A DNA stretch of 64,000 nucleotides, taken from contig JBFMGO010000009.1 in the NCBI GenBank assembly GCA_040752695.1, positions 9,789 through 73,788 on the forward strand, read 5' to 3'. This document shows positions 1 through 33,521 of this stretch, piece after piece; positions within the stretch are counted from its first letter, which is position 1, and each line of letters begins with the position of its first letter. Under the pieces are notes generated by a model. It was not told the DNA's origin and did no database searches. It was given only the letters and a program-made list of their open reading frames with translations. This DNA comes from a bacterium (GTDB lineage: Bacteria > SZUA-182 > DTGQ01). Both the position numbers and the translations under genes were made by a program.

Positions 1-173
1 GAACCCAATGTCATACTACATTTACTTGATATTGTTGAAAATGCCATTATAAGTCAGGTACACCAAATACCTGCGAAACTTTAGTTAATAGTATATTATA
101 TGTTATATTGATTGCGGTAGAACTGTTAGTTTTTTGTGTATTTCTGTCAATTTATTAGGGAAGGAGATGTACG

Positions 174-3100
174 ATGAGGAAACTTTGGGTGCAAGGGGTA
201 ATTGGGGGGTTATTTTTCCTGCTTCATTTCACAACTCTCAACTTCATGGGTTTTAGGTTCAGCTCCTATTGCTTTGCCGAGACTAATGTTGGCGGCCCCG
301 TAAGGGGGAATGTTACCTGGAGCCTGAATAAAAGCCCCTATATTGTGAAAAGCTCCATTTCGGTTGTGTCGGGTGCTACCTTGACTATAGAGCCAGGGGT
401 GGAAGTGCGGCTTCAGGAAGGCAAGGCCGTCCAGGTAGATGGAACTCTGATAGCCAGAGGGACAGTGGATGCGAAGATTGTCTTTACGACATATCAAAAA
501 AGTCCCTTGGTCAGATGGGGTTACATTCTATTTACGGATAGTAGTGTTGATGCTACAGTTGATGGGGAAAATTACACGGGAGGATCGATCCTGGAGCATT
601 GCCTTGTGGAATATGCCAATGGTGGGGATAGACAGGGTGCTGTAATATGCGAAAAAGCTTCGCCACTTTTCAACTATTGCGAGATCAGGAATAATACAAT
701 CTCAGGGATGAGGATAACTGATAGTTCTAATTTAGTAACCAATTGTAACATAAATAATAACATCTCAGCTTCCTCTGGAGCAGGAATTAATGCAAGTGGT
801 AATAGTACGCTGACTATCATCTCAAGTACAATTACTAACAATGCTTCGGGAGGAACATCGGGAGGAGGAGGAATCTGTTTTACATCACCTGGTATCCTGA
901 CCATCATTTCAAGTACAATTACGAATAACTCTGCAGCTCCAACGCCAGGCAGTGGAAACAATAATTTTTGGGGAGGGGGAATAGCTGCGAATAGTGGTGT
1001 AATTAATATATCTTCCAGCACAGTGGCGGGAAATACCGCGAAAAGGTTCGGAGGAGGAATTCGGGCAAGTGGTTCATCCATAACTGTTTCCAATTGCAAA
1101 ATAGTGAATAATTCTGCTGAAGGATCTGGCGGCGGAATTGCCATGTCGGTGCCTAACGTGACGATAACATCAAGTACTCTATCCAGTAATGTCAGTCATG
1201 GTGCTGGTGGTGGCATTTTTGGTGAATATTGCGGGTCAACGAATATTTCTTATTGCACCATTTACGATAACAAGGCCACCAGCAGGGGAGGAGGCATTGA
1301 TGTAAGAGGCGCTAGTAGTCATAATATTTCTCATAATTTGTTTATGGATAACTCTAGCACGAATCACGGTGCTTTTATTTCGGACGAAAATAGCGCCTCC
1401 TTAAAGCTTACCAATAACACTTTCTTTAGTAATAAGAGCGGACTCTCAGGTATATACCTTAAAGGGACTGCTTACACCATCAGTAACAACAATATCTACG
1501 ATAACCCAACCCAATACGATATTTACTGTGACAATCCCTCTGCATCCCCGGTGCTTAATGCCACCAATAACTACTGGGGCACAGAAGATGAATTCGAAAT
1601 CACCGAGCGTATCTATGACTGGTATGACGACAGCAGCAAAGGCAAGGTGGAATACTATCCCTTCCTGACTGCACCATCCCCTGATGCCCCTCTCCCTGCT
1701 TATTATTTAGACAATGACCAGGATGGCTATGGTGATTCCAGTAAGCCAATGCAAACCTTGACAGCTACCCAGGGCTATGTAGATAATCCCAATGATTGCA
1801 ATGATAATGATGCTACTATCAATCCCGCTGCTCAGGAAGTCTGTGATAACATGGATAATGACTGCGATGATAAGATAGATGAGGATCTTACCCAAACGTG
1901 TCCTGATGGCGAGGGGAAAGCCAGTTGCCAGAACGGTCAGTGGGTGGGTTGTTGTGTTCCAACGCCCGAAACCTGCGACAGCAAGGATAATGACTGTGAT
2001 AGCAAGATAGACGAAGACCTGACCCAGACCTGCTCCACTGCCTGCGGTCAAGGCATAGAAACCTGCCAGAACGGGAAATGGACGGGGTGTACTGCACCAC
2101 AGCCACAAACAGAGACTTGCGATGGGAAAGATAATGATTGCGACAATCAGATAGATGAGGAAGTAAAGAGTACCTATTATGCAGATAATGACAAAGATAC
2201 CTATGGCAATCCCTCTCAAAGCATTCAAGCGTGCTCTGCACCTTCCGGCTATGTTGTAGATAAAACTGATTGTAATGATACAGATAACCGCATTCACCCT
2301 GGAGCACCTGAAATCCCCTGCAATGACAAAGACGATGACTGTGTAGGAGGAGATGATTGCAGTCACATAGGAGAGTGTGTAGAAGATAATTCGGGGACAA
2401 TAGATATCGTAGGCACTCAAGAAAGGGTCGGAGGCGAAATTCAAATCCCTATAAGAATTCAATCTGCACCTGGTGAAGTTAATTCTATCGGTTTTGAAGT
2501 GGCGTATGATCCGAGCATTTTGGAATACACAGGCTTTGAGCAAAAGGATTTAGTCGCTTCTTTTGATATGCTTAATATCAACCCCTCTGGTTCTGGCAGG
2601 TTAAAAGTGGCCGGGTTTTCAGCCACAGGAGGTATTGTACAGGGAGCAAGTGGTGATTTGATCCACTTAAAATTCAAGGTAAAAAGCGGTCAAGAAAATG
2701 AATGCTATCCTTTGCAACTGGAGAATTTAAAAGATCACATAACCAATTTTTCTCATTCAAGTGGATGTTTTTGTATCCATAGCTGTAATGGAGATCTTAA
2801 TAATGATGGAGAAATTACTCCACTTGATGCCCTCATCGCCTTTAAATGCTACCTGGGCTTGTTGGACTCTTGCCCTGATTATGCTGATGTAAATCAGGAC
2901 GGCGAGATAACTCCGCTCGATGCTCTTTGTTTGTTTCAAGAATATCTGGGGCAACCATCCTGTTTAGATAAACAGATATGTACTGATCATGATGGAGATG
3001 GTTTTGCCGTTGAAGGTGGGAAATGTGGTCCAATAGATTGCAACGATAGTGATTCAGCTACTTACCCAGGAGCTAAGGAAACGTGTGTAGATGGACAAGA

Positions 3101-4037
3101 TCAGGATTGCGATGGATCAGATCTTGTATGTCCACCTGAAGGAGAACTATTATCACAACTTTCTTTAGGATCCTCTCCTTATGAGTGGAAGGATAAGAAG
3201 TCCGAGTGGAATAAATATCTTGATAACTTATGGAAGAACTACTTTGATAACTTACCTGATACAAAAAGTGAAAAATTTAAGAAGATGGAACTGGATGCTA
3301 TATGCAAACTAATCAAACGAATCCAAGGAGATCTTGATAGTATAGAAATGGCTGAAGATGTGTACGACGGCCTTCTTACCACTACACGTGAGGAAACTGA
3401 TAAAGATTATTTTTACCCTTTATGGATAGATGTAGTAGGCTGGGATTCTACTGAAAATTCTATTAAAAATTGGTATGATCTGATATATGGTGCGAATAGT
3501 TGGGATAGTTATTGTGCAACTTATTGTGCAAGTACCCCACAGTGTTGCGAGAAAGCCCGAGATTGGTTCGCACGAAATGTTGTTTATGAAAAATTCTGGC
3601 GGGATTATCTTGGTCTGTTTTCTGATGGTATATTGGCCGTCAGCTCTCTAAAAGACCTAATCGAAAGAGCATCAGAATCAGATCCAAAATTCAAAGAATG
3701 GTGTGGATTAAAAATGTGTCAATACCCAGAAGATTACTATATAATGGAATGCTCAGGAACATGTTCTGAAGCCAATAGTTGGGAGCAGTGTGGACCAATG
3801 GGCTGTAAATTGGAGTGGGGAGCAAGTTGTGCAAGGGTTTACTATAACTGTATAGACGAAGTTGTCAGGAAAGACGGTGATGGCGGAGTTGGAGGGATAG
3901 GCTCAAAGCCAAATTTAGATTCTGTCTGTGATAAATATATGAAAGGTGCTCTATCACGTCTTCTAGAAGCTAAAGGACTAGGACCCTGGGATGGGGGGCT
4001 TACGTATACTGGACCTCCAGTTTACCTTAGGGAGTAA
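174..4037 (+). CDS. Large secreted multidomain surface protein: N-terminal right-handed parallel beta-helix repeats, Cys/Asp-rich 'DNDCD' repeats (MopE-like), cohesin domain, two dockerin repeats, Cys-rich C-terminal domain
   Basis: 1287-aa ORF with RBS GGAAGGAG before the ATG and a hydrophobic N-terminus. Repeats 'NNxISxxxSGxGGGI' are typical of pectate-lyase/NosD-like beta-helices. Tandem 'CDxKDNDCDxxIDEDLTQTC' repeats. 'IQIPIRIQSAPGEVNSIGFEVAYDPSILEYTGFE' is cohesin-like. 'DLNNDGEITPLDAL' and 'DVNQDGEITPLDAL' form a canonical dockerin calcium-binding repeat pair. Confidence 0.6.
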   Translation: MRKLWVQGVIGGLFFLLHFTTLNFMGFRFSSYCFAETNVGGPVRGNVTWSLNKSPYIVKSSISVVSGATLTIEPGVEVRLQEGKAVQVDGTLIARGTVDAKIVFTTYQKSPLVRWGYILFTDSSVDATVDGENYTGGSILEHCLVEYANGGDRQGAVICEKASPLFNYCEIRNNTISGMRITDSSNLVTNCNINNNISASSGAGINASGNSTLTIISSTITNNASGGTSGGGGICFTSPGILTIISSTITNNSAAPTPGSGNNNFWGGGIAANSGVINISSSTVAGNTAKRFGGGIRASGSSITVSNCKIVNNSAEGSGGGIAMSVPNVTITSSTLSSNVSHGAGGGIFGEYCGSTNISYCTIYDNKATSRGGGIDVRGASSHNISHNLFMDNSSTNHGAFISDENSASLKLTNNTFFSNKSGLSGIYLKGTAYTISNNNIYDNPTQYDIYCDNPSASPVLNATNNYWGTEDEFEITERIYDWYDDSSKGKVEYYPFLTAPSPDAPLPAYYLDNDQDGYGDSSKPMQTLTATQGYVDNPNDCNDNDATINPAAQEVCDNMDNDCDDKIDEDLTQTCPDGEGKASCQNGQWVGCCVPTPETCDSKDNDCDSKIDEDLTQTCSTACGQGIETCQNGKWTGCTAPQPQTETCDGKDNDCDNQIDEEVKSTYYADNDKDTYGNPSQSIQACSAPSGYVVDKTDCNDTDNRIHPGAPEIPCNDKDDDCVGGDDCSHIGECVEDNSGTIDIVGTQERVGGEIQIPIRIQSAPGEVNSIGFEVAYDPSILEYTGFEQKDLVASFDMLNINPSGSGRLKVAGFSATGGIVQGASGDLIHLKFKVKSGQENECYPLQLENLKDHITNFSHSSGCFCIHSCNGDLNNDGEITPLDALIAFKCYLGLLDSCPDYADVNQDGEITPLDALCLFQEYLGQPSCLDKQICTDHDGDGFAVEGGKCGPIDCNDSDSATYPGAKETCVDGQDQDCDGSDLVCPPEGELLSQLSLGSSPYEWKDKKSEWNKYLDNLWKNYFDNLPDTKSEKFKKMELDAICKLIKRIQGDLDSIEMAEDVYDGLLTTTREETDKDYFYPLWIDVVGWDSTENSIKNWYDLIYGANSWDSYCATYCASTPQCCEKARDWFARNVVYEKFWRDYLGLFSDGILAVSSLKDLIERASESDPKFKEWCGLKMCQYPEDYYIMECSGTCSEANSWEQCGPMGCKLEWGASCARVYYNCIDEVVRKDGDGGVGGIGSKPNLDSVCDKYMKGALSRLLEAKGLGPWDGGLTYTGPPVYLRE

Positions 4038-4168
4038 AAATAAGGTGGGGAATATCTGATAAGGGATTCTTAAGAAGTTCGCACAGAAGCTGGCAGAAGG
4101 TTTTGATACCTTATTTTCTACTACCACGGGCTACGCTCAGTTAGATGAGAGAGGAGGCCAGGAAATAT

Positions 4169-4345
4169 TTAATGCACGGAACAGGAAAAGCACGGGTCAT
4201 AGGCACGGATGAGCTGTTCGCATTTCATACGCAGTGCCTCATCTTCGTCGCTTTGGGCATAGCTCTGAGCCAGTGAGCGAAGATCCTTTTCGATATTGGC
4301 AAAGTTATGGGAGGTGGGGGTGTAAAAATGCAACCGGTTTGAGAG
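4169..4345 (-). pseudogene. Possible remnant of a [NiFe]-hydrogenase large subunit C-terminus (ends ...LIRAYDPCFSCSVH*)
   Basis: Minus-strand translation ends 'HNFANIEKDLRSLAQSYAQSDEDEALRMKCEQLIRAYDPCFSCSVH' then stop. The C-terminal 'DPCxxCxxH' is the Ni-binding/maturation-cleavage motif of NiFe hydrogenase large subunits. Upstream residues are low-complexity and no start codon is evident, so I read this as a fragment. Confidence 0.3.
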
Positions 4346-4616
4346 AAGGAGATTGGGGAGCGAAACGGGAAATAAGAGGTTGATAGAACTAGAAAAATGA
4401 CGGGTTGATGACCTGTTTCAATGTGCGAAAAATTTTTCGCCATTTTCCTGCTTTGTTCGATCAGAGGAAAATAGCTCTATATTTATCATTGAATATAAAA
4501 AAGTAGGGTAATGAGAAATTGAAGGAGAAATTAATAAAGTAGGTGTCATAAAGGAAGGGTTAGAGAGAATATTATCAAATCAAGGCGTTGACCTTGATCA
4601 GGCGGGCAGGAAATGG

Positions 4617-4737
4617 AATCACACAAAGGCACAAAGACCACAAAGGGGGAAGACCGTTGTCGCCTGACAATTTTGTTCTTTGTAACCCTGATCCTCTATG
4701 CCTTTGTCCCTTTGTGGCCTTTGTGGTCTTGGTGTGA
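4617..4737. repeat. Imperfect long inverted repeat built from 'CACAAAG' units (hairpin-forming); candidate IS91-type terminal (ori/ter-like) structure
   Basis: 'cacaaaggcacaaagaccacaaaggggg' at 4622-4649 is largely complementary to 'cctttgtccctttgtggcctttgtggtcttggtgtg' at 4701-4736. It lies just beyond the 3' end of the IS91-like transposase gene. Confidence 0.45.
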
Positions 4738-4911
4738 GATGGCTTTTTTTTGTAGTTCGATGAACTTATCGCCCTTCGGGCGGACTTTTACTCTTGGTCT
4801 ACACACTCCATAGTATAATTATCACACCCTGGACATCCGATCTTTGGCATATATCCTTCATGGTACTCATTGTTGAATTTGGCCATCCCGATTCCAACAT
4901 CAATGATTGCC

Positions 4912-6051
4912 TCATTGACTAGAAGCTCCGTTCCACACACCGAACAGCGGTAATTGTACTCTTTTGGAGGAGGACCGAATGGCTCTTCCATCACCTTCAT
5001 CATTGAAGGGTTTTTGCTCCTTTGTCTCATATTTACCTTTCTTCATCTCCTCAAGCTCGTTATAGATAATACCATATTTGGGGTGCCATATTAGCCAGAT
5101 ACCCATCTCTTGCCCACAACGGGGACAAATGAACGGATCTTTCCCTGTGCTCTCCTGGTATCTTTCCCGATAGGTTTTAGGAGTGATAATCTGAATCGCA
5201 CCATGAACTGCTCTCTTTATTTTGGCCAGGGCTTCTCGAACAATTACCTTAATCTTCTCGAAAGTCTTGGTCGCTTGAACCCCGTAATACCTGATCCTTT
5301 TAAACCCTTTGGGAAGAACATGCTGGATCATTCTCCCGATAAAGGTATATACATCCACGATCTCTTTCTCTACCTTCTCCGTCTTGTGAGACCGGTAATG
5401 ATAGGTCACGCTCTGCCCATCATAGGCATCTATTCTTCTCACCGAAATCGGTGGACTCACCACATATTTAGCCAGGTATTTGGCTAAACTCTTATAGCGG
5501 GCTGGTACATCCCCTGTTTGCACATGGGCTACAAACCCTTTCGGATAGCGCTCGTAGCAATAATCTACCAACCTGTCTATCTCATCCGTATCCAACTGCT
5601 CTCTTAACATCTCCAGCAAATACCACTGCCACTTCCTATGCAGCACATGATACGGTAAATAATTCAAAGAGACCCACTTGCAACTCTCCTCATCCAATCC
5701 CCCGCTGGTTGCTATAATGTGAAGATGGGGATTATATTGACCATTTCTCCCATGAGTCTGGAGCACTACTATGTAGCCTCCCTTTAACCTCTTCCTACTC
5801 ACGCAGCTAAAAAAATCATCCAGACACTTGTTTACAAGTCTCATGAACGGCCCCAATAATTCTGGATGATTGTAGAAGGTCTGACGTAAAACTTCTGGTA
5901 CGGTCAGTATAATATGCCGGTAGATCACTCCCTCATGCAGCATCTTGCTTATCTGGCTAACCCAATCATCTACATACACCTTCCCGCATCGCAAGCACAG
6001 TGAACACTTGCAACTCATCGATACTATTCTTGTCCCCTGCCCGCAATGCAT
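4912..6051 (-). CDS. IS91-family transposase, main body (HUH motif 'NPHLHIIATSGGL', C-terminal CxxC zinc ribbon)
   Basis: 'GGYIVVLQTHGRNGQYNPHLHIIATSGGL' matches the IS91/IS801 HUH motif. 'SMSCKCSLCLRCGK' is the N-terminal zinc-binding domain. C-terminal 'CPRCGQEM'. Confidence 0.75.
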   Translation of the reverse strand: MHCGQGTRIVSMSCKCSLCLRCGKVYVDDWVSQISKMLHEGVIYRHIILTVPEVLRQTFYNHPELLGPFMRLVNKCLDDFFSCVSRKRLKGGYIVVLQTHGRNGQYNPHLHIIATSGGLDEESCKWVSLNYLPYHVLHRKWQWYLLEMLREQLDTDEIDRLVDYCYERYPKGFVAHVQTGDVPARYKSLAKYLAKYVVSPPISVRRIDAYDGQSVTYHYRSHKTEKVEKEIVDVYTFIGRMIQHVLPKGFKRIRYYGVQATKTFEKIKVIVREALAKIKRAVHGAIQIITPKTYRERYQESTGKDPFICPRCGQEMGIWLIWHPKYGIIYNELEEMKKGKYETKEQKPFNDEGDGRAIRSSSKRVQLPLFGVWNGASSQ

Positions 6052-13356: not shown

Positions 13357-15666
13357 TTACCTTTTCGGGTCTCTCAGTGTCCGGATATCTCCGGTCCGGC
13401 TGGTGAATCCGATAGAGTCGAGGTAATCCAGAATCAAAACGGTGGTCCTTCGGCTCAGGTCAGCTATATTGCTGCGGAAATCTGCAATGGTAAGGCTTTT
13501 TTCCTTTTGTATATATGCTGTTATCATCTCCTTGAGTTTATTCAAAGGCTGACTATGGATGATGGTATCTGGCGTGATGCGGATTAAAACGCCCTGACTT
13601 ACGAGCATCTTCAATAACCTCTCCACCTCCTCTCTATGTTGGGTGTTGCATATGGTGTTATTTTTAATGCTGCTTTGATGGGTGTTGTTCCGGGTGCCGT
13701 TTTGAGAGTTATTATGGGTACTATTGACAATGTTCTGGTAAAGGTGACTTATCTTTAATGGCTGGTATCCGCTGGATAGAAACACTCTTTCCATCATAGT
13801 AATAATTTCCTTCTGCCAGGAATTTAATGACGGCCTATGATCGGCCAGCCTGACATGAGGACCTTCCAGCGCTATGGCCTGACGCGCTTCGAGGTCCCCG
13901 ATCAGGCAATGAAAGAGCCGGATATCCATCTCTCCTGATGTCCTTGCCCTGAGCATCTCTTTGCCCATACCCTTTTCAAGGGGATTTTGGCTATGAAATT
14001 TTTGCAGAGTGTCTGTTATTTTCCTTTTGATGCTCGCAGCTTGCTTGCTGGCAAAAAGAAATTCTTCTTTATTCTTATCAATATTCTTATCAATATTCTT
14101 ACCAATACCGTTACTATTACTATAACTGCTCCCGTTAGCATTACCGTTCTTCTTATCAATATCTTTATCAAGGCAATAGAGAACGCCTTTGTTTTTTAGC
14201 CGGGTCAGGATATCGTTAAGCTCGATATGAGTAAGCGCAGTCTTCCTGAGCAATTCGGTTTTCGTGCAAAGGGTGAAGGTATGTCGTGAGATTATCTCAC
14301 TGACGAAGCTCTCGAACCTTCCCTGCTCCAGGAGTTCAAGCCGGGCTATTCTGCCTGTACCCTTCGAAGTGACGCTTGTATCTTTCAGGACGCTGCCTGC
14401 GCCCTTCGAGATACTGCCTGCGCTCTCCGAGATACTGTAACGCCTGGGATGGGCATCAAGGATAACACCTCCGCCAATAGTATGCTGGGGGCTGAGAGAT
14501 CGGATAATGAATCTATCGAATACCAGAGGCGACGCCTTTTCCTCCAGCCTGAATTGGACAATAGCCTGCTCGCCGGGCTGCATCTTGTCTCTATCCATGA
14601 GAATTACTCTGGCTATGAGCTCGGTGGTGCCGGTATACAGGCGTACTCTGGTCCTGTTGACCAGGGGAGAGGCATTTGATTCCAGGTACCGGAGCCTGGC
14701 ATCCAGTATGCCGGTTGGAAGCAGCAGTGAATCCGGCGGTGCGATGGTATCACCTCTTTTAATCTGAGAAGTGCTGATACCGGCCAGGTTAAAGCCGACC
14801 CGCTGCCCTGTCCGGGCCTCTTCAACCCATTGGTTATGTACCTGAATACCACGGATCTTGACCTTGCAGCCCGCAGGATAAATCATTGCCGCAGATCCGG
14901 GCCTCACATTTCCATCCACAAGCGTGCCGGTAGCTATCGTGCCGTAGCCTGCCATGGTAAAAACCCGGTCTACCGGAAGCCGGAATTCACCCTTAAGTCT
15001 GGTTTTTTCGACTTTGCCGATGAGTTCCGTAAGAGCCGTGTTTACCTGGCCAATTCCCTCGCCGGTCCGGCATGAGCAATCGATTATCGACGTTTTCCGG
15101 AGAAAGGTCGGCTCAATGAGCTTGGCAACTTCCTCGTGAACCAGTTCCAGCCAGTCCCTGTCCACCAGATCGACCTTGTTTACCACGACAAGCCCGAATC
15201 TGATTCTCAGCAGTGAGAGAATATCGAGGTGTTCTCTGGTCTGAGGCATGGGACCATCATCGGCTGCTATGACCAGAATGACTATATCGACTCCTGATAT
15301 TCCCCGCAGCATGTTCTTGATAAATTTCTCATGCCCCGGACAATCGATAATACTTACCACGTGCCCGCTGGGGAGCCGATAGGGGGCAAATCCTGGTTCT
15401 ATCGATATGCCCCGAACCTTTTCCTCTTTCAGCCGGTCCGTATCCACGCTGGTAAGGGCTTTAGCCAGAGCGGTCTTGCCGTGGTCGATATGCCCGGCCA
15501 GGCCTATGGCAACATTCCGCACTACATCTCCAGCTACTTTTTGCGCCTGGCCGCTGGACCCATTTTGCCCCAGACCGCTGGATCCATTCCGCGCCAGGTA
15601 GCTATATCCACTCTGTCCCAAGTATCGAACTCCATTCTGTGTCAGGTCCGCAGTTCTATTCTTCAA
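13357..15666 (-). CDS. selB: Selenocysteine-specific translation elongation factor SelB (with N-terminal extension and an internal low-complexity insert)
   Basis: G-domain motifs 'AGHIDHGKT', 'DCPGHEKF', 'VVNKVDL'. Domain order EF-Tu-like then C-terminal winged-helix region. 769 aa versus about 620 typical. Insert '[30 protein letters not shown]' derives from tandem 'ttcttatcaata' repeats near 14080-14115. The true start may be downstream of 15666. Confidence 0.85.
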
Positions 15667-15718
15667 TGAAATGAAAAGTTACCCAACTTTTTCTTTCATC
15701 TCTTGCCACAAGGAAAGA

Positions 15719-15822
15719 GAGGTTCAAAAGAGAGGGTAAGGGGAATCGAACCTCCTACGGCCCTTGCACAGGCCGACCAGCGGATTTGAAGTCCGTGGGG
15801 CACACCAGTACCATTACCCTCG
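15719..15822 (-). tRNA. selC: tRNA-Sec (anticodon UCA), selC; ends approximate
   Basis: Minus-strand sequence contains 'GGACUUCAAAUCC' (anticodon arm core identical to E. coli selC), a long variable arm 'CGGCC-UGUGCAAG-GGCCG', the T-loop 'GGUUCGAUUCC' and an 8-bp acceptor stem 'GAGGGUAA/UUACCCUC'. Sits immediately upstream of selB. Not folded with software. Confidence 0.72.
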
Positions 15823-17380: not shown

Positions 17381-19132
17381 ATGCTGCCAAGTTCCTTTGT
17401 TCAGTTTAGGTACAAGTCCATTTTCTTTTTCTGTATCCTGGCACTCCTGGGCAGTCTCTTTTGGCCTGTTCCCGTCCGGGCTCAGTGGTCTCCCAGGCTC
17501 TTTCAGGGGATATTCGGCAATGTGGGGCTTCCCTATTTCGCACTGCCATCTCCCTGGATGGCCTTTACGTCTCCCGCTCAACCGCAGCCTCAGCCGCAAG
17601 GAAAGAAACAGATAACCGGTGTGGATTATACATCGAGCTATGCGCTGATACCCTATGAGTTACAGGGGCTTGCAGCGCAGGGTGATTATATATACGCTAC
17701 CTATGCACGAAATGGATTCGACATCTGGGAAGATGCCCCCATTGCAGAAGCGGGACTGGCCGTTTTTACCTTATCCACGGAAGGGGAAGCACAGTTCATC
17801 GCCAGCGTCGAGCTTCCCTGGGATTGGCAAGAAGAGTGTGCGTTAACGGGGCCAGGGGCCTTGCCGGATAAAATTCTGATAACCGAGGAGGGCCTGGCCT
17901 TTATCACGCAACGGTATCCCGCAGTGCTGTGGGTTGTTGACCTGTCCGATCCTGCCGATCCGAAGCTGGTTACTTCCCTGACCATGGAAGAGGGCGTACT
18001 GCTGGATCTGGCGGTTGGAGAGGAGGATGTCTACCTGGCTCTGGACGATGGGAGCGGAGAAGAGAGCGTTATATATGCTCTGAACCTGAGTGAGGCGAAT
18101 GATCCTCACATAACTCCTTTCTTTTCCCTGGAGGGGAAAGTTGGACCTTTACTCCTGAGACAGGGATATTTGTATGTGTTTGGTCAAGGTCCGGAGAAAG
18201 GATATGTTTTTGATTTACAATCGGCCACACCCGCCTCACCGTGCGGATTTCTTGATATTTCAGGGGAAAGCGCTGCCTGGGCAGGAAACCTCCTCTACCT
18301 GGTCACGGGCCACACTGAAATCAAGTCCTGGCTGCATATCGTTGATTTGACCAATCCCGGACAACCAGCGTTGCAGGAATCAATCAATCTTGTGGGCAGA
18401 GAGTTGCAGGTTCTGTGCCAGAGTGAATATGCCCTGGTCTGGAAATCGTCGGTTTTTGATACCCGTCACTATCTGGACATTCTGAACGTGGCCAACCCCG
18501 GCGACTCTACCCATCCCCAGGATGTCGCTACTGTCGCTACGGTACGTTTGGCAGACCGCCCCAAGAGTCTGGCCCGTGGTGAGGCATGCTTCTATGTTCT
18601 TGACAACTCCGGCCTGCAGGTGCTGAATCTGTCTGCCCCGGATGATATATCCTGGGTTTGGGAAAAATCTATTGACTTGTCTTCCGTTTTGCTCTCAGCA
18701 AAACTGGAAAAAATCGATCATCCGATGCTTGATAACCCACCTTCCGATACAGAAAGTACAACCCCAGCATCCTATGATTTTTTTCAGGATGGATGGCTTT
18801 CCTGGGGTCCGTGGTCTTTATTTGACAACATGTTTTCTTTATTAAATTCATTGTACTCAGTGAACTCGAAAGGATACGGACCTGTGGCTGTGAACTCCAG
18901 TTTATATGGCTTTTCCGGTGCCCTTGGTCCCTGGCTTGGATCTGATTCCTTTTCTTACTCAGGGAGCGGTTCATGCGCTTATGCTCGCGGATCTGTGAAT
19001 TTGTTGGACGGCGGTGGCAGCTCTTCTTCCCGTGAATATGACATCCTGAATCTCCCGTTCTCCTTCTTCTCAAGTTACGATTGCCCTGTTCCATTTTACC
19101 CCTTTCCGTCACCTTCCGTATCCTTTTACTAA
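17381..19132 (+). CDS. Secreted LVIVD-repeat (beta-propeller-like) surface protein with Ser/Gly/Tyr/Phe-rich C-terminal tail
   Basis: Signal peptide 'FFFCILALLGSLFWPVPVRAQ'. Repeated motifs 'VLWVVDLSDPADP', 'IYALNLSEANDP', 'WLHIVDLTNPGQP', 'LQVLNLSAPDD' are typical of LVIVD repeats. RBS GGGGAGGAAG. Confidence 0.6.
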   Translation: MLPSSFVQFRYKSIFFFCILALLGSLFWPVPVRAQWSPRLFQGIFGNVGLPYFALPSPWMAFTSPAQPQPQPQGKKQITGVDYTSSYALIPYELQGLAAQGDYIYATYARNGFDIWEDAPIAEAGLAVFTLSTEGEAQFIASVELPWDWQEECALTGPGALPDKILITEEGLAFITQRYPAVLWVVDLSDPADPKLVTSLTMEEGVLLDLAVGEEDVYLALDDGSGEESVIYALNLSEANDPHITPFFSLEGKVGPLLLRQGYLYVFGQGPEKGYVFDLQSATPASPCGFLDISGESAAWAGNLLYLVTGHTEIKSWLHIVDLTNPGQPALQESINLVGRELQVLCQSEYALVWKSSVFDTRHYLDILNVANPGDSTHPQDVATVATVRLADRPKSLARGEACFYVLDNSGLQVLNLSAPDDISWVWEKSIDLSSVLLSAKLEKIDHPMLDNPPSDTESTTPASYDFFQDGWLSWGPWSLFDNMFSLLNSLYSVNSKGYGPVAVNSSLYGFSGALGPWLGSDSFSYSGSGSCAYARGSVNLLDGGGSSSSREYDILNLPFSFFSSYDCPVPFYPFPSPSVSFY

Positions 19133-19341: not shown

Positions 19342-20499
19342 TTAGTAGCCACGTGTACTTCTATAATGGTAAGAGGATTGCCGCCGGAATACTTGATGTC
19401 CATAGGCTCCCATTTCGTATTGGTACTTGCCTTTTGTCCTTATACACGGAGAGCCAGGCTGCAGATGGTAGTCCCCTGCCTCAGGACTAACGAACAAAGG
19501 ATCAGCATTGATATTGCCTATACCAGGAAACCATCCCTGAATATCGGAAAAGGTGATCTGGATTCTCTTACCGGAAACCTGGTCCGGATAGTTATCCCAG
19601 AGAATACTGCTTGTGATAATCGGCGCTGAAAAGTATTTAAACGTTCCACCAGAGAGTAGAAATTCCTCAACAAAGTATACCCAAACATCAAGGTTGCTCA
19701 ATACCCCGCCGCCAGAAACAGAGGCTGTGTTTTCAACAATGGTACAATTAGTGATTTTGGGTCTTGGTAAGCCGCCGCCGACAGGTATCCCCATACCAAA
19801 GGAAAGAAAAACAGCACCCTGGCAAAAAATGCCACCGCCATTGCTTGTCGAGTTTCGGGCAATGATGCAATTAGTGATGTCCGGCGAAGAATCATAAGCA
19901 CAAAAAATCCCTCCACCGCTACCCCTCTTCTCCTCCGTGGAAGTTGAGATTTCCGTTGAATTTCCCATAATGATACAATTGGTGATACTTGGCGAGGAGG
20001 AAACGCAATAAATCCCTCCACCACACTGACCGGCTGAATTCCCGATGATCATGCAGTTGCTGATGGTCGGAGAGGAGTAGTAGCAATAAATCCCTCCGCC
20101 ATATTCAGCCTTACCATTTTGCACGGTGACACCACTGAGAAGAGCATTGATGCCCAGGCGACGAAAATCGCTTCCTTCTTCGGCCTCAAACTTAACCACA
20201 TGTCCTGCCTGATTACCATCAATAATCGTCGCTGCCACTATAGCCGGATCATTGGGATCAGTACTTTTTACCGTGATGGCTTTGCCCAGGAAATGAATAT
20301 TCTCGTAGTAAATCCCCTCGTAAACCACAATGACATCTCCGCTATTGGCTCCCGCAATCGCTGCCTGAATAGTAGAATAATCATCAGGAACATGAACCTC
20401 GGAAGCCAGAGCTAAAGGATAGGCATAAACTGCCAAAACAATCAACGCGACTACTGTTCCAAGAGCAATACGGAAGGTTGATTCAGGTATTTTTTTCAT
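19342..20499 (-). CDS. Secreted right-handed parallel beta-helix repeat protein (NosD/pectate-lyase-like fold)
   Basis: Start at 'MKKIPESTFRIALGTVVALIVLAVYAYPLALA' (RBS GAGGGAA). Repeats 'GGGIYCYYSSPTISNCMIIGNSAGQCGGGIYCVSSSPSITNCIIMGNS' resemble the repeats in the 174-4037 protein. Confidence 0.65.
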   Translation of the reverse strand: MKKIPESTFRIALGTVVALIVLAVYAYPLALASEVHVPDDYSTIQAAIAGANSGDVIVVYEGIYYENIHFLGKAITVKSTDPNDPAIVAATIIDGNQAGHVVKFEAEEGSDFRRLGINALLSGVTVQNGKAEYGGGIYCYYSSPTISNCMIIGNSAGQCGGGIYCVSSSPSITNCIIMGNSTEISTSTEEKRGSGGGIFCAYDSSPDITNCIIARNSTSNGGGIFCQGAVFLSFGMGIPVGGGLPRPKITNCTIVENTASVSGGGVLSNLDVWVYFVEEFLLSGGTFKYFSAPIITSSILWDNYPDQVSGKRIQITFSDIQGWFPGIGNINADPLFVSPEAGDYHLQPGSPCIRTKGKYQYEMGAYGHQVFRRQSSYHYRSTRGY

Positions 20500-20604
20500 T
20501 GTTCCCTCGTTTGGTTGGTTAATGATGGAGAAACGCAAATCAAAGATGAATAATTTCCTTCAAAGTATAGTAAATATATCGTCATATATCTACTATACTT
20601 TTGC

Positions 20605-30340: not shown

Positions 30341-31264
30341 ATGTCTTACACGTTCGAACAAGTAGATGAGGCGTTAGTTCGCATTCAGAAAAACCACCCG
30401 GAGATCGAAGAAGTGATTGTATTCTACAGAGAGATACTGAAAAAGCAGTTGCAGATTAAAAGCAGCATCCATCTGCCCCCTTTCTCTCTTGCTGATGCAA
30501 AGGCAAAAGGAAAGTTTGAACATGGGATTCCGTTACTTGAGTTGAGTCTCGTCCCCGACTCCCTCAAGGTTTATGAACCCCTGGTGAAGGAGTTAACCAG
30601 GCTGTTGAAAAAAAGAGGACCGGCCGTCACGGCAGAGATAGAAAAAATTACCAAAGATATTCTGAGGGATTCTTATATCTTTATCAGTCTGGCCAATAAT
30701 TACCTGTTGCATAACTGGGCACCTATCCATGATCTGGCCAGGGCACATGAGCTCGATATCGCTCTTTTGTTTTTCTTTATCAAAAGCATTGTAAAACCCT
30801 TCGTTGAATCCCTGGCAGAGGGAATTACTACCAGTTACCAGCTTCCGCCCTGGTCGGAGTCATTGTGTCCTATCTGCGGTTCTCTCCCTGCACTGGCCTA
30901 TTTGAAGCTGGCCGATTCCAACAATAATGATAATGGACAGGAACACACCATTTGCCGGGTAAAAAAAAGATTTCTCGTCTGTTCCCTCTGCAATTACATC
31001 TGGCCTTTCCCACGGTTAAGGTGCCCTTTTTGCCAGACGGAAAGACGTGATGCCCTGCACTATTTTTGCGTAGATTCGGATGAAAAAGGATATAGGGTCG
31101 ATATATGCACGGATTGTAAAGGGTATATCAAGACCATTGATTATGAATACCAGCCACTCCCTGAAGGACTGCTCTTTCTGGAAGACCTCAACACTATCTA
31201 TCTGGATTTGATTGCTGAAAAGGAGGGCTACTGTAAAAAAGCCAAGGGGATCTTTTCCCTGTAA
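30341..31264 (+). CDS. fdhE: FdhE-like formate dehydrogenase accessory protein
   Basis: About 307 aa with four CxxC pairs in the typical FdhE arrangement ('CPICGSLP', 'CSLCNYIWPFPRLRCPFCQ', 'CTDCKGYIK'). Confidence 0.6.
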   Translation: MSYTFEQVDEALVRIQKNHPEIEEVIVFYREILKKQLQIKSSIHLPPFSLADAKAKGKFEHGIPLLELSLVPDSLKVYEPLVKELTRLLKKRGPAVTAEIEKITKDILRDSYIFISLANNYLLHNWAPIHDLARAHELDIALLFFFIKSIVKPFVESLAEGITTSYQLPPWSESLCPICGSLPALAYLKLADSNNNDNGQEHTICRVKKRFLVCSLCNYIWPFPRLRCPFCQTERRDALHYFCVDSDEKGYRVDICTDCKGYIKTIDYEYQPLPEGLLFLEDLNTIYLDLIAEKEGYCKKAKGIFSL

Positions 31265-32621: not shown

Positions 32622-33521
32622 CTATGTTCCCTGGCGGTTCAGCCCCGATTCCCGGCCACTGCTGTCCATATGGAGGGAGCCAAACTGAATTGACCGCACT
32701 CTGTGCTTTTGCACAAGCGGAGTCAAGCAGGACAATTGCTTTCGCTTCAGATCCGCGTCCTGAATAATCCCCATGGCCAGGCAATCGTTCATATCATCAC
32801 AGAAGCCGACCAACAAGCCCTGCCAGTTCCGGGGATTTTGGATCTCCGGTATATGTCCATGAAGTCCCATGCCGCCAAAAGCGATTTCTATTATCCTTGA
32901 CTCATGGAAATATTTCTGAAACTGCTCCTGGCGATATTCCCAGCGCTGCTCGATGGACTTTGGCTGAATAGCCTCTGCTACGGGAAATCGACGAAGAGAA
33001 AGATACCTGCGATAAGAGAAATTTTTCAATAGCCCGTCCAGCTCTTTTCCCCTTGCCAGAGCGATAAGGTGCGAAGGGTTCACCAGATCGATTTTCTGAA
33101 ATTTGAACTCCAGGCCAATCCTGCCGGAAACAAAGCCGGAAGTGTCCAGGACGACTCCATCCACCTTTTGGCGGAAGGCCCTGTCAATCAGGGTTCGAAC
33201 CGCTACCAGGGTTTGCAGAAGATGCCCTACTGGTGAAGTCGATCCAACAAAGCGTAACTGTAAAGGCCCATTTATTCCATCTGGTGGAGAAACAATGCTC
33301 ATACCGACGCTGGCGGGAGGGCCAAGAATGGATTGTCCCAGATCCGAATCGATCCAGGCCACACGGCGACCGTGTTGGCACAGTTGTGAAACCAGGTATT
33401 GACATAACGTGGATTTCCCCGTATCGTTTTCTCCCAGAGCGAAAATAAGAAACCGGCGCTGGTAACTTTCGAGGTCTTTGACCAGTACCAGCCACTCTTC
33501 AGGTACTCTATCAACAGTCAT
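32622..33521 (-). CDS. P-loop NTPase resembling Clp1/Grc3-type polynucleotide 5'-kinases
   Basis: Walker A 'ALGENDTGKSTLCQYL', 'VAWIDSDLGQS', Walker B-like 'VVLDTSGF'. The order and spacing resemble the Clp1 P-loop domain. Tentative. Confidence 0.45.
   Translation of the reverse strand: MTVDRVPEEWLVLVKDLESYQRRFLIFALGENDTGKSTLCQYLVSQLCQHGRRVAWIDSDLGQSILGPPASVGMSIVSPPDGINGPLQLRFVGSTSPVGHLLQTLVAVRTLIDRAFRQKVDGVVLDTSGFVSGRIGLEFKFQKIDLVNPSHLIALARGKELDGLLKNFSYRRYLSLRRFPVAEAIQPKSIEQRWEYRQEQFQKYFHESRIIEIAFGGMGLHGHIPEIQNPRNWQGLLVGFCDDMNDCLAMGIIQDADLKRKQLSCLTPLVQKHRVRSIQFGSLHMDSSGRESGLNRQGT

What the first reader, a model, noticed from the sequence alone, without database searches (positions are those of the whole stretch)
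174..4037. Single protein combining cohesin and dockerin modules with beta-helix and MopE-like Cys/Asp repeats
Cohesin and tandem dockerin repeats in one 1287-aa secreted protein resemble cellulosomal adaptor scaffoldins. The rest of the window points to a sulfate-reducer or syntroph-like anaerobe, not a cellulolytic organism. A second beta-helix protein (19342-20499) and LVIVD/propeller surface proteins are nearby. This suggests a cohesin-dockerin-mediated cell-surface assembly with a non-cellulosomal function.
Basis: partly seen in the sequence, partly recalled or inferred. Interest (0 to 1): 0.5.

Follow-up and report, generated by a model that had tools for sequence, protein, structure and literature searches.

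The report
Non-cellulosomal cohesin-dockerin surface protein
A large secreted protein of an uncultured anaerobic bacterium really does carry a cohesin "socket" fused to a dockerin "plug". It is one more member of the already described non-cellulosomal cohesin-dockerin systems, made a little unusual by a gene fusion and a 303-residue end domain with no relatives in any database searched.

Summary
ORF 174..4037 (+, 1287 aa) passes Pfam gathering thresholds for Beta_helix, five MopE-type Cys/Asp motifs, Cohesin (res 742-843, 40 bits) and Dockerin_1 (res 873-920, 39 bits). A structure model of res 733-939 matches type I cohesins.

The cohesin and dockerin form one linker-less, Cys-rich didomain (res 733-932). 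That didomain defines a family:
- Two further didomain proteins appear to come from the same MAG.
- A related MAG has at least 7 carriers.
- Desulfococcaceae/Desulfobacteraceae and KSB1 genomes hold same-strand gene arrays of them.

The carriers are peptidases, Kazal inhibitors, VWA, cadherin, FG-GAP and beta-helix proteins. None is a carbohydrate-active enzyme.

Relatives encode the window protein as two adjacent genes, beta-helix-MopE-Doc and Coh'-Coh-Doc. The window version is their fusion and lacks exactly the first dockerin and the divergent cohesin.

Res 985-1287 is an orphan domain, with only a self-hit among 1.84 billion representatives.

Most likely this is a secreted adhesin-like beta-helix protein that plugs into a non-cellulosomal cohesin-dockerin extracellular network. 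Such systems are already described for ANME archaea, syntrophic sulfate reducers and Cloacimonadota. No binding was tested, no partners lie in the window, and the host is not shown to be a sulfate reducer. Verdict: a new member of a known kind, of modest interest.

The parts
161..166 (+). Shine-Dalgarno AAGGAG, 7 nt upstream of the ATG at 174
   Evidence: Read from the sequence.
174..4037 (+). Whole gene, 1287 aa plus stop. NCBI protein MEW5801121.1, 'MAG: MopE-related protein [bacterium]'.
   Evidence: It is a singleton cluster at 90% identity.
174..278 (+). Probable Sec signal peptide, res 1-35 (MRK, hydrophobic core, then C-F-A | E-T)
   Evidence: Inference from the sequence. The N-terminus is conserved in the relative P0002. 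No signal-peptide predictor was available.
279..1688 (+). Right-handed parallel beta-helix region with PMP-like 'GGGI' repeats, res 36-505. It includes the conserved cap 'NYWG...YYPFL'.
   Evidence: Pfam Beta_helix E 1.1e-18. 47% identity to gene A of L048 and L002 over res 1-593. Hundreds of beta-helix homologues. No catalytic family matched.
1689..2369 (+). MopE-type Cys/Asp-rich repeats (PF11617 motif), res 506-732, with 20 Cys
   Evidence: Pfam E 4.1e-30, 5 stretches for the whole protein. Motif positions. Res 594-715 are 65% identical to L048 gene B res 199-320.
2370..2783 (+). Cohesin module, res 733-870
   Evidence: Pfam Cohesin 40.2 bits, above the gathering score of 24.1. PDB cohesin hits. 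Foldseek top hits are type I cohesins. The family HMM covers res 738-874. The last ~30 residues (841-869) are modelled at pLDDT below 50.
2784..2969 (+). Dockerin module, res 871-932. It has two F-hand segments (D874-D885 and D905-D916), directly abuts the cohesin, and has 5 Cys.
   Evidence: Pfam Dockerin_1 38.7 bits, above 22.9. The dockerin is modelled at pLDDT 80-88. Family conservation of the calcium ligands and of C871, C900, C919 and C930.
2970..3125 (+). Sixth MopE-type motif, res 933-984. It continues the reading frame beyond the point ('...PSCLD') where about half of the didomain carriers end.
   Evidence: Pfam Cu-binding_MopE E 1e-8 on the sub-fragment. Family C-termini.
3126..4034 (+). 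Orphan C-terminal domain, res 985-1287. It has 15 Cys and 13 Trp and is predicted mostly helical.
   Evidence: Only a self-hit among 1.84e9 representative proteins. No Pfam, PHROG or PDB match. The frame was open in 0 of 20000 shuffles, and the other two forward frames have 17 and 33 stops. AlphaFold single-sequence pLDDT is 39.

Best explanation
The gene encodes a secreted, non-catalytic, adhesin-like protein. It is a component of a non-cellulosomal cohesin-dockerin network on the cell surface or in the extracellular matrix of an uncultured anaerobe.

The N-terminal beta-helix and the calcium- or metal-binding, disulfide-rich MopE-type repeats form the exposed 'business end' and stalk. The linker-less, Cys-rich Coh-Doc didomain (res 733-932) acts as a combined socket and plug. 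Its dockerin inserts, calcium-dependently, into a cohesin on another protein. Its own cohesin accepts a dockerin from a further protein. Candidate partners are the two paralogous Coh-Doc proteins that appear to come from the same MAG, an unidentified anchor, or another copy of the protein itself. In this way diverse secreted proteins would be chained or meshed together.

The window protein arose by fusing what relatives keep as two adjacent, presumably interacting genes: beta-helix-MopE-Doc, and Coh'-Coh-Doc.

**Shown:** domain identities, the existence and multiplicity of the family, the non-CAZyme cargo, and the fusion relationship.

**Inferred:** secretion, calcium-dependent binding, who binds whom, and the adhesive or matrix role.

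The function of the orphan C-terminal domain is unknown. My guess is a disulfide-rich extracellular ligand-binding or anchoring domain.
For: **Domains.**

**Didomain family.** There are 8 proteins at 42-65% identity over at least 90% of the didomain, plus weaker hits. Calcium ligands and several cysteine columns are conserved across 38 didomains.

**Probable same MAG.** P0121 (MEW5804742, 290 aa, 65% identity) and P0124 (MEW5800776, Coh-Doc-DUF6970) have accessions in the same range as the window protein MEW5801121. Same-genome origin is inferred from the accession numbers and names.

**Multiplicity and clustering in relatives.**
- HOT.CON.50 has at least 7 Coh-Doc carriers plus dockerin-only and cohesin-only genes.
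- Desulfococcaceae and Desulfobacteraceae MAGs have 3-5 consecutive same-strand Coh/Doc genes (L007, L010, L011, L014, L035).
- KSB1 has three consecutive Coh-Doc-Coh genes (L020).

**Cargo.** Peptidases, inhibitors and adhesion domains, not CAZymes.

**Fusion.**
- Window res 1-593 match gene A (47%). Res 594-715 match gene B's MopE segment (65%). Res 734-932 match gene B's Coh-Doc (55%).
- Genes A and B lie 17-29 nt apart.
- The modules missing from the fusion are gene A's dockerin and gene B's signal peptide plus N-terminal domain. That domain's only Pfam hit is Cohesin (E 8.8e-4, 19.9 bits, below the gathering score).
- Another locus again places a beta-helix-HYR-Doc gene beside a Coh-...-Coh gene (L021).

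**Literature.** The same class is described as putative adhesins or assembly systems in ANME (PMC9012536), syntrophic SRB (PMC10553843) and Cloacimonadota (PMC8542988).
Against: - No binding experiment or complex prediction was possible.
- No partner lies in the window. The sequence upstream of position 1 is not available, and the gene was not found in the metagenome collection.
- No cell-anchoring module (SLH, sortase signal, T9SS CTD, PEP-CTERM) was detected in this protein.
- The C-terminal third of the cohesin is not matched by the Pfam model (positions 109-139) and is modelled at low confidence. From what I recall of cohesin structures, this part contributes to the dockerin-binding sheet.
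- A family cysteine present in 55% of members is Tyr903 here.
- The architecture is a singleton. The gene has atypical GC3 (0.37 against 0.49-0.63) and lies next to an IS91 transposase and a gene relic. A recent, possibly non-functional, rearrangement therefore cannot be excluded.
Confidence: 0.6

Rival explanations
1. The Coh-Doc didomain is a self-contained, intramolecularly locked unit. The dockerin packs on its own cohesin, fixed by disulfides. It serves as a rigid structural or ligand-binding stalk, not as a protein-protein connector.
For: The cohesin and dockerin abut with 0-4 residues between them throughout the family. There are many conserved cysteines at the junction and at both ends of the dockerin (C871, C900 and C930 in 87-89% of members). 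Intramolecular clasps that stabilise dockerins are known (PMC3821032, title and abstract).
Against: Genomes with the didomain also encode dockerin-only and cohesin-only proteins of the same family, often in the same gene array. That makes sense only for binding in trans. The family consensus is undefined at dockerin positions 2, 4, 7, 11, 18 and 19, which include some positions I recall as specificity-determining in cellulosomal dockerins. That fits diversified partner choice. The AlphaFold interdomain confidence is low (pTM 0.46), so no cis packing is predicted with confidence.
Confidence: 0.15
2. It is part of a cellulosome-like polysaccharide-degrading complex, with the beta-helix acting as a pectate-lyase-type or other glycan-cleaving enzyme.
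For: Right-handed beta-helices include polysaccharide lyases and glycosidases. Beta_helix and a weak DUF5123 match are present. Cloacimonadota MAGs are proposed to build cellulosome-like complexes carrying both glycosidases and peptidases (PMC8542988).
Against: No CAZyme catalytic family and no CBM were matched in this protein. None was matched in 19 carrier or neighbour proteins from related loci; one carrier (L006) has only the accessory CHB_HEX_C_1 and Fn3_assoc domains. None was matched in the 39 window ORFs scanned. The repeats are of the PMP or adhesin type ('GGGI').
Confidence: 0.1
3. It is a polymorphic toxin or effector: a beta-helix delivery stalk with a unique, strain-specific C-terminal toxin domain (res 985-1287).
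For: The C-terminal domain is unique in 1.84e9 representatives. It sits at the end of a large secreted repeat protein. GC3 falls to 0.30 there. About half of the didomain carriers end at the didomain, so the tail is an add-on.
Against: No toxin or pre-toxin family was matched. There is no plausible immunity gene: the only + strand ORFs of at least 30 aa in 4038-4912 are 33-66 aa, and none of them has a family match. The domain is Cys- and Trp-rich (15 Cys), which suggests an extracellular disulfide-bonded fold rather than a cytoplasm-acting toxin.
Confidence: 0.07
4. The present architecture is a recent rearrangement product or assembly chimera with no selected function of its own: a decaying or accidental fusion beside a mobile element.
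For: It is a singleton architecture. GC3 is 0.37 against 0.49-0.63 for the other window genes examined. An IS91/Y2 transposase lies at 4912-6051 (-), and a stranded 3' fragment resembling a [NiFe] hydrogenase large subunit lies at 4169-4333 (-) immediately downstream. One family cysteine is lost. The source is a MAG.
Against: The ORF is intact for 1287 codons with a strong ribosome-binding site. Every recognisable module is complete and scores above threshold. The tail starts with an in-frame MopE motif. It stays open where the other two forward frames have 17 and 33 stops.
Confidence: 0.08

Closest known systems
Non-cellulosomal cohesin/dockerin proteins of ANME archaea and their syntrophic sulfate-reducing partners (Chadwick et al. 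2022, PMC9012536; Murali et al. 2023, PMC10553843)
   Same: Both involve secreted proteins with cohesin and/or dockerin in non-cellulolytic anaerobes. The attached domains vary. The proteins are proposed as adhesins or matrix organisers. Modules show signs of transfer between clades. Didomain relatives occur in Desulfococcaceae and Desulfobacteraceae MAGs.
   Different: The host here is an unclassified 'bacterium' MAG, not shown to be a syntroph or sulfate reducer. No archaeal relative of this didomain was recovered. The papers do not describe this linker-less Cys-rich didomain, the fusion or the orphan tail.
Monovalent cellulosomal adaptor scaffoldins (one cohesin plus one dockerin, e.g. Ruminococcus flavefaciens ScaC; from my own knowledge) and adaptor scaffoldins in general (PMC4959524)
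   Same: One polypeptide carries both a cohesin and a dockerin, so it can bridge two other components. The cohesin is closest to type I cohesins by sequence and fold.
   Different: There are no CAZyme clients, no CBM, no anchoring scaffoldin and no cellulolytic host. The cohesin and dockerin are fused without a linker and are cysteine-rich. The didomain is appended to functional 'cargo' proteins rather than forming a dedicated scaffold.
Archaeoglobus fulgidus cohesin/dockerin protein (Bayer 1999; Haimovitz 2008, as cited in PMC9012536); PDB 2xdh, a chain named only COHESIN, which I recall as this cohesin
   Same: It is non-cellulosomal. From my own knowledge, cohesin and dockerin lie in the same protein of a non-cellulolytic sulfate-reducing anaerobe. 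Binding of the archaeal modules has been verified experimentally (as stated in PMC9012536). 2xdh_A is a direct sequence hit (E 0.0019).
   Different: Similarity is distant. The architecture differs, and there is no beta-helix, MopE repeats or Cys pattern.
Cellulosome-like complexes proposed in Cloacimonadota (Ca. Stygibacter; PMC8542988)
   Same: Dockerins sit on Peptidase_C25 and S8 peptidases in a non-clostridial anaerobe, matching the cargo seen on this didomain family.
   Different: That system has a 3755-aa multi-cohesin scaffoldin with CBMs and a T9SS CTD, and its clients include glycosidases. No scaffoldin with CBMs was found here: L013 of HOT.CON.50, on a 2.7-kb contig, carries several cohesins, but was not scanned for CBMs.
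Clostridium perfringens toxin and glycosidase cohesin-dockerin complexes (PDB 2jh2, 2vo8, 2w1n; biology from my own knowledge)
   Same: Cohesin-dockerin pairing links secreted non-cellulosomal proteins to each other without a scaffoldin. These cohesins are among the fold matches.
   Different: The cargo there is glycoside hydrolases. The dockerins are of a different type, and there is no fused didomain.
MopE of Methylococcus capsulatus (source of the NCBI name 'MopE-related protein')
   Same: It shares only the short PF11617 Cys/Asp 'putative metal-binding motif'. PDB 2vov, 'surface-associated protein', is a marginal hit at E 0.053.
   Different: There is no similarity to the copper-binding MopE domain proper. 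The name describes a repeat, not the function.

Membership tests
Cohesin (Pfam PF00963) | Profile score at or above the curated gathering threshold | tested here: met
   40.2 bits against 24.1, E 5e-10, res 742-843. 42.6 bits on the sub-fragment.
Cohesin (Pfam PF00963) | Nine-stranded beta-sandwich (jelly-roll) fold | tested here: inconclusive
   The AlphaFold model has pLDDT 80-92 over res ~753-837. The top 40+ Foldseek PDB hits are all cohesins (probability 1.00; TM 0.53-0.64 normalised to target). The last ~30 residues (strands 8 and 9) are below pLDDT 50. The Pfam match stops at model position 108 of 139.
Cohesin (Pfam PF00963) | Binds a cognate dockerin | not testable with these tools
   No complex prediction or experiment was available.
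Dockerin type I (Pfam PF00404) | Profile score at or above the curated gathering threshold | tested here: met
   38.7 bits against 22.9, E 1.1e-9, res 873-920.
Dockerin type I (Pfam PF00404) | Two duplicated ~22-residue segments, each with an EF-hand-like calcium loop (Asp/Asn at positions 1, 3, 5 and 12) followed by a helix | tested here: met
   Segment 1 is D874-L-N876-N-D878-G-E-I-T-P-L-D885-A-L. Segment 2 is D905-V-N907-Q-D909-G-E-I-T-P-L-D916-A-L. These ligands are conserved in at least 90% of 38 family members. Helices are modelled after each loop at pLDDT 80-88.
Dockerin type I (Pfam PF00404) | Calcium-dependent binding to a cohesin | not testable with these tools
   Needs a binding assay with and without EDTA.
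Cellulosomal adaptor scaffoldin | Non-catalytic polypeptide with at least one cohesin plus a dockerin | tested here: met
   One cohesin, one dockerin and no catalytic family.
Cellulosomal adaptor scaffoldin | The cohesin recruits dockerin-bearing carbohydrate-active enzymes, and the system includes CBMs | tested here: not met
   No CAZyme catalytic domain or CBM was found on this protein, on 19 carrier or neighbour proteins from related loci, or on the 39 window ORFs scanned. Dockerin-bearing relatives carry peptidase, Kazal, VWA, cadherin, FG-GAP, HYR and beta-helix domains.
Cellulosomal adaptor scaffoldin | The dockerin binds an anchoring scaffoldin attached to the cell (SLH or sortase) | not tested
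   No anchoring protein was identified in the window. The rest of the MAG could not be searched.
Non-cellulosomal cohesin-dockerin systems of anaerobic consortia (ANME/SRB type) | Secreted cohesin and/or dockerin proteins with non-CAZyme partners in a non-cellulolytic anaerobe, with several such genes per genome | tested here: met
   Three Coh-Doc proteins have accessions in one range and are attributed to this MAG. Relatives have at least 12 Coh/Doc genes in HOT.CON.50 and 3-5-gene arrays in Desulfococcaceae and Desulfobacteraceae MAGs. The window encodes an anaerobe-type gene set.
Non-cellulosomal cohesin-dockerin systems of anaerobic consortia (ANME/SRB type) | The host is a syntrophic partner and the genes are expressed in consortia | not testable with these tools
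   The organism is named only 'bacterium'. No dsr, apr or sat family was matched by the ORFs scanned. No expression data are available.
MopE copper-binding protein | Homology to the MopE copper-binding domain, not only the PF11617 repeat | tested here: not met
   Only the 30-residue PF11617 motif matches. The PDB MopE chain 2vov_A is marginal (E 0.053) and confined to that motif.
Polymorphic toxin | A recognisable C-terminal toxin domain with an adjacent downstream immunity gene | tested here: not met
   No family matches res 985-1287. Downstream + strand ORFs are 33-66 aa, and none has a family match.

The most novel reading that the evidence does not exclude
The linker-less, cysteine-clasped Coh-Doc didomain may be a self-complementary 'socket-plus-plug' tag. 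Several uncultured anaerobic lineages (an unclassified phylum-level group, Desulfococcaceae and Desulfobacteraceae, and KSB1) would append it to otherwise unrelated secreted proteins: gingipain-like, papain-like and subtilisin peptidases, Kazal inhibitors, VWA, cadherin and beta-helix adhesins. These proteins would then daisy-chain head-to-tail into a scaffoldin-free extracellular protein mesh. The window protein would be a natural 'Rosetta stone' fusion that identifies one cognate pair, the gene-A dockerin with the divergent Coh' of gene B. That would be a distinct assembly logic from the hub-and-spoke cellulosome.
Probability: 0.25. Interest if true: 0.55.

Novelty: new member of a known kind. 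Interest (0 to 1): 0.3.

Why it matters
Cohesin-dockerin pairs are among the strongest known protein-protein connectors. Outside cellulosomes their biological role is still largely inferred.

This locus adds three things:
- A compact, conserved Coh-Doc didomain family with a clear sequence signature.
- A list of non-CAZyme cargo proteins attached to it.
- A natural fusion that predicts which dockerin binds which cohesin.

These give concrete pairs for binding assays. If the didomain proves self-complementary, it could also be a small disulfide-stabilised tag for protein-assembly engineering.

For understanding this organism, the gain is modest. The protein is probably one adhesin or matrix component among several.

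Tried and rejected
- **Partners in the window.** Family-specific cohesin and dockerin HMMs run on all six frames found only the target itself. Pfam scans of the nearby PMP-repeat, LVIVD, GEVED/propeller and Big_5 proteins showed no cohesin or dockerin.
- **Identity of the C-terminal 303 residues.** Every search came back empty:
  - Pfam at E up to 10.
  - NCBIfam on the whole protein.
  - PHROGs.
  - PDB sequences (one chance hit at E 0.51).
  - Word-index search of 5.8e9 proteins (nothing was returned, not even the parent protein, which is odd).
  - Exhaustive phmmer over 1.84e9 representatives (self only).
  - tblastn against all 48 fetched loci.
  - The single-sequence AlphaFold model was unusable (pLDDT 39), so I ran no fold search on it.
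- **Recovering the contig beyond the window edge or other genes of the MAG.**
  - Exact-protein look-ups failed for the target, P0121 and P0124.
  - An exact 50-mer search of metagenome contigs found nothing.
  - The window's own genome was not among the GTDB representative genomes hit; the best match was 62% identity.
- **Phage carriage of the didomain.** No relatives were found on IMG/VR viral contigs. However, the L002/L048 gene pair lies beside Mu-like phage genes.
- **Interdomain geometry (cis or trans binding).** The didomain model has pTM 0.46 and a low-confidence junction. No coordinates or PAE are returned, so no conclusion was drawn.
- **Promoter and terminator scan of 1-5000.** Counts were at shuffle expectation and uninformative.
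- **Literature.** Peer et al. 2009 (PMC3035643) is not held. The search for the HSG8/HSG9 isolates gave nothing relevant.
- **Ideas considered and rejected.**
  - MopE-like copper protein: only the short repeat matches.
  - Lipoprotein: there is no lipobox before C33.
  - Two dockerins: it is one dockerin with its two standard segments.

Full report
**1. The observation**

ORF 174..4037 on the + strand is open for 1287 codons. An AAGGAG ribosome-binding site lies 7 nt before the ATG. Pfam gives four families above their curated thresholds:

| Family | E-value | Location or detail |
|---|---|---|
| Cu-binding_MopE | 4.1e-30 | five stretches |
| Beta_helix | 1.1e-18 | res 273-441 |
| Cohesin | 5e-10 | 40.2 bits against 24.1, res 742-843 |
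| Dockerin_1 | 1.1e-9 | 38.7 bits against 22.9, res 873-920 |

NCBIfam has no model for the protein.

- A search of PDB sequences with res 723-984 hits cohesins: 4ums_A at E 2.3e-6, and 2xdh_A at E 0.0019. 2xdh_A is a chain named only COHESIN, which I recall as the Archaeoglobus fulgidus module. The same search hits several dockerins at E about 0.01, and these are marginal.
- An AlphaFold model of res 733-939, built on a 10-sequence alignment, has mean pLDDT 74. The cohesin core and the dockerin are at 80-92.
- The best Foldseek matches of that model in the PDB are all cohesins, with type I first (5nrk_A, E 3e-6).
- Read directly, the dockerin has the two canonical duplicated segments with calcium ligands in place. 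Segment 1 is D874-x-N876-x-D878...D885. Segment 2 is D905-x-N907-x-D909...D916. Both share the identical stretch DGEITPLDAL.

'Tandem dockerin repeats' means one dockerin, not two.

**2. Anatomy of the protein**

| Residues | Module | Basis |
|---|---|---|
| 1-35 | Probable Sec signal peptide | My reading; the N-terminus is conserved in the relative P0002 |
| 36-505 | Right-handed beta-helix with PMP-type GGGI repeats; no catalytic family | |
| 506-732 | MopE-type Cys/Asp repeats, 20 Cys | |
| 733-870 | Cohesin | |
| 871-932 | Dockerin, abutting the cohesin with no linker | |
| 933-984 | One more MopE motif, E 1e-8 | |
| 985-1287 | Domain with no recognisable relative | See below |

For the last domain I found only a self-hit among 1.84 billion representative proteins. 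Nothing turned up in Pfam, PHROGs or PDB. The single-sequence model is unusable, at pLDDT 39.

The domain is nevertheless coding sequence. The frame was open in 0 of 20000 shuffles of that DNA, and the other two forward frames hold 17 and 33 stops. Its 15 Cys and 13 Trp fit a disulfide-bonded extracellular domain.

**3. The cohesin and dockerin form one conserved didomain that defines a family**

A search with res 733-939 returned 11 proteins. Eight cover at least 90% of the query at 42-65% identity.

- In the alignment the two modules are always contiguous.
- The calcium ligands are nearly invariant.
- Several cysteine columns are conserved. C871, C900 and C930 are present in 87-89% of 38 didomains, C919 in 74% and C735 in 63%.
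- One family cysteine, present in 55% of members, is Tyr903 in the window protein.

Two of the hits have accessions in the same range as the window protein (MEW5801121) and carry the same name, 'MAG: ... [bacterium]':
- P0121 is MEW5804742, 290 aa, 65% identical.
- P0124 is MEW5800776, 356 aa, Coh-Doc-DUF6970.

I take them to come from the same MAG. They are the most concrete candidate partners.

**4. The family in other genomes**

A scan of one genome per GTDB species gave 47 loci.

- About half of the carriers I examined end with the didomain ('...PSCLD' then stop), on proteins of 278 to about 2000 aa.
- Scanned carriers hold Peptidase_C25, Peptidase_C1, VWA, Kazal inhibitors, FG-GAP, PD40/HYR and Beta_helix.
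- Neighbouring cohesin or dockerin genes hold cadherin and HYR arrays.
- A KSB1 carrier looked to me like a subtilisin; this is my reading of its sequence.
- No glycoside hydrolase catalytic domain or CBM was seen. One carrier (L006) has the accessory CHB_HEX_C_1 and Fn3_assoc domains.

Family HMMs run on all loci show that the genes are multi-copy and often clustered:
- The MAG 'bacterium HOT.CON.50' has at least 7 Coh-Doc carriers, plus dockerin-only and cohesin-only genes.
- Desulfococcaceae and Desulfobacteraceae MAGs have 3-5 consecutive same-strand Coh/Doc genes (L007, L010, L011, L014, L035).
- KSB1 has three consecutive Coh-Doc-Coh genes (L020). In the two carriers of this type that I read, the protein appeared to end in a T9SS-type sorting domain; this is my reading of the sequences.

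Dockerin-only and cohesin-only proteins coexist with didomain proteins. This argues that the modules work in trans.

**5. The window protein is a fusion of two neighbouring genes**

In L048 (a JGI metagenome) and L002 (HOT.CON.50), two genes lie 17-29 nt apart on the same strand. The two loci are the same locus at 94-96% DNA identity.
- Gene A is beta-helix-MopE-Doc.
- Gene B is signal peptide-Coh'-(MopE-Coh')-Coh-Doc.

The window protein aligns as follows:

| Window residues | Matches | Identity |
|---|---|---|
| 1-593 | Gene A res 1-636 | 47% |
| 594-715 | MopE segment of L048 gene B | 65% |
| 734-932 | C-terminal Coh-Doc of gene B | 55% |

Absent from the fusion are gene A's dockerin and gene B's signal peptide plus Coh'. 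That dockerin is a different subtype, lacking the ITPxDAL and Cys signature. Coh' is a domain whose only Pfam hit is Cohesin, at E 8.8e-4 and 19.9 bits, which is below threshold.

The two modules that would hold A and B together non-covalently are thus both replaced by a peptide bond. This is a Rosetta-stone type argument that A-Doc binds B-Coh'. It is an inference that rests on one independent locus. A second, looser example supports it: L021 has a beta-helix-HYR-Doc gene beside a Coh-...-Coh-HYR gene.

**6. Context in the window**

No other cohesin or dockerin exists in the 64 kb. The PMP-repeat protein (19342..20538, -) and the LVIVD protein (17381..19132, +) lie about 13-15 kb away. Between them and the target are LysR, a class V aminotransferase, a TusA-DsrE protein, a BcrAD-type activase, a double-cubane reductase, SelB and tRNA-Sec. 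Nothing links them to the target gene.

The target gene is compositionally atypical:
- Its GC3 is 0.37 overall, 0.335 in the Coh-Doc part and 0.30 in the tail. The other window genes examined have 0.44-0.63, all but one at 0.49 or above.
- It is followed by a 54-aa ORF resembling the extreme C-terminus of a [NiFe] hydrogenase large subunit.
- Next comes an IS91/Y2 transposase.

Horizontal acquisition or local rearrangement is therefore plausible. This agrees with the inter-clade transfer of cohesin/dockerin modules proposed for syntrophic SRB (PMC10553843).

The gene starts 173 nt from the window edge, so its upstream neighbours are unknown. I could not recover them.

The organism is named only 'bacterium'. 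The window indicates an anaerobe: a Sec-containing formate dehydrogenase with the motif HCARL-U-HSSTV, SelB and tRNA-Sec, and a double-cubane reductase. No marker of sulfate reduction was matched by the ORFs I scanned.

**7. Most likely mechanism (confidence about 0.6)**

The protein is a secreted adhesin-like beta-helix carried on a disulfide- and calcium-stabilised stalk. Its Coh-Doc didomain links it into a non-cellulosomal cohesin-dockerin network. The dockerin plugs into a cohesin of another protein, and the cohesin receives another dockerin.

The identical DGEITPLDAL segments suggest the dual binding mode known for symmetric type I dockerins. That is established knowledge of the family and was not tested here.

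- **Shown:** the modules, the family, its multiplicity, its non-CAZyme cargo and the fusion.
- **Inferred:** secretion, binding, the identity of partners and the biological role.

Rival explanations, with evidence for and against each, are in the Rival explanations section:
- A cis-locked structural didomain (0.15).
- A polysaccharide-degrading, cellulosome-like complex (0.10).
- A polymorphic toxin with an orphan toxin tail (0.07).
- A recent rearrangement product with no selected function of its own (0.08).

**8. Comparison with what is known**

Non-cellulosomal cohesins and dockerins are long known. Peer et al. 2009 and the A. fulgidus work are cited in PMC9012536. Such modules have been described in several settings:
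- In ANME archaea (PMC9012536).
- In syntrophic sulfate reducers, as putative adhesins, including 'adjacent cohesin/dockerin domains' and inter-clade transfer (PMC10553843).
- In Cloacimonadota, with dockerins on C25 and S8 peptidases (PMC8542988).

The window protein works like a monovalent adaptor scaffoldin. It fails the functional membership criteria of cellulosomal adaptors: CAZyme clients, CBMs and an anchoring scaffoldin.

I therefore file it as a new member of the known non-cellulosomal cohesin-dockerin kind. Three features appear undescribed in the papers I could read:
- The linker-less, Cys-rich didomain used as a portable C-terminal tag.
- The natural fusion that predicts a cognate pair.
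- The orphan tail.

**9. Verdict**

The novelty is modest and I score interest at 0.3.

The most novel reading still open has probability about 0.25. In it, the didomain is a self-complementary tag that daisy-chains diverse secreted proteins into a scaffoldin-free extracellular mesh.

Noticed in passing
window 41127-43823 (-), TGA at 42771-42773: A NuoG-like/molybdopterin formate dehydrogenase alpha subunit is split into two listed ORFs by an in-frame TGA within '[15 protein letters not shown]'. From my own knowledge this looks like the classic selenocysteine site, so it is one Sec-containing protein of about 900 aa. A NuoF-like subunit (43836-45683) lies next to it, and an FdhE-like gene lies at 30341-31264.
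   Followed up: partly
window 13357-15821 (-): The selenocysteine elongation factor SelB (13357-15666) lies immediately downstream of the tRNA-Sec gene (15730-15821). ARAGORN and Rfam agree on the tRNA (58.9 bits).
   Followed up: yes
window 4169-4333 (-): A 54-aa ORF ends '...AYDPCFSCSVH'. Its only Pfam hit is NiFeSe_Hases positions 490-508 of 508 (E 0.0087, below threshold). It is probably a stranded 3' relic of a [NiFe] hydrogenase large-subunit gene, lying between the target gene and a transposase.
   Followed up: partly
window 4912-6051 (-): An IS91-family Y2 transposase (Y2_Tnp E 2.7e-35) lies here. Its zinc-binding domain matches only from model position 43, so it may be N-terminally truncated. 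An overlapping 80-aa Cys-rich ORF lies at 4788-5030 (-).
   Followed up: no
window 174-4037 against the rest of the window: The target gene has GC3 of 0.37 (0.30 in the orphan tail). The other genes examined have 0.44-0.63, all but one at 0.49 or above. This suggests foreign origin or relaxed codon adaptation.
   Followed up: partly
L002 (1-7100) and L048 (1-8655): In the relatives, the beta-helix-Doc / Coh'-Coh-Doc gene pair lies directly beside Mu-like phage genes: terminase, portal, Gp36-like and tail tube. L002 and L048 are the same locus at 94-96% DNA identity. No didomain relatives were found on IMG/VR viral contigs.
   Followed up: partly
L048 12177-14189 against L002 9386-10597: L048 gene B contains a near-exact internal duplication of the Coh' module with an inserted MopE segment (res 62-190 and 329-457). 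The otherwise nearly identical L002 gene B lacks it. This is either very recent domain duplication or an assembly artefact.
   Followed up: no
L013 (HOT.CON.50, 2.7-kb contig): Two overlapping frames together carry about three to four cohesins plus a dockerin (Coh-Coh-Coh, then Coh-Doc with a frame change near 1815-1966). This may be a small scaffoldin-like gene with a frameshift or sequencing error.
   Followed up: no
window 50542-57321 (-) and 57543-59489 (-): A 2259-aa protein has GEVED and Reg_prop repeats and a sub-threshold C-terminal OMP beta-barrel match. It sits next to a 648-aa Reg_prop/Big_5 protein. This is a second set of large surface proteins, unrelated to the cohesin-dockerin family.
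   Followed up: no
window 32622-33521 (-) and 33690-35627 (+): A bacterial CLP1_P P-loop protein (E 2.3e-36) lies beside a thioredoxin-like/NHL-repeat protein. The latter could be an exported thiol-disulfide oxidoreductase, possibly relevant to the many cysteine-rich secreted domains, but this is untested.
   Followed up: no
(tool behaviour): The word-index homologue search with res 985-1287 returned no hit at all, not even the parent protein P0001, which the exhaustive search later found at E 4e-211. Negative results from that tool for this query should not be over-read.
   Followed up: yes
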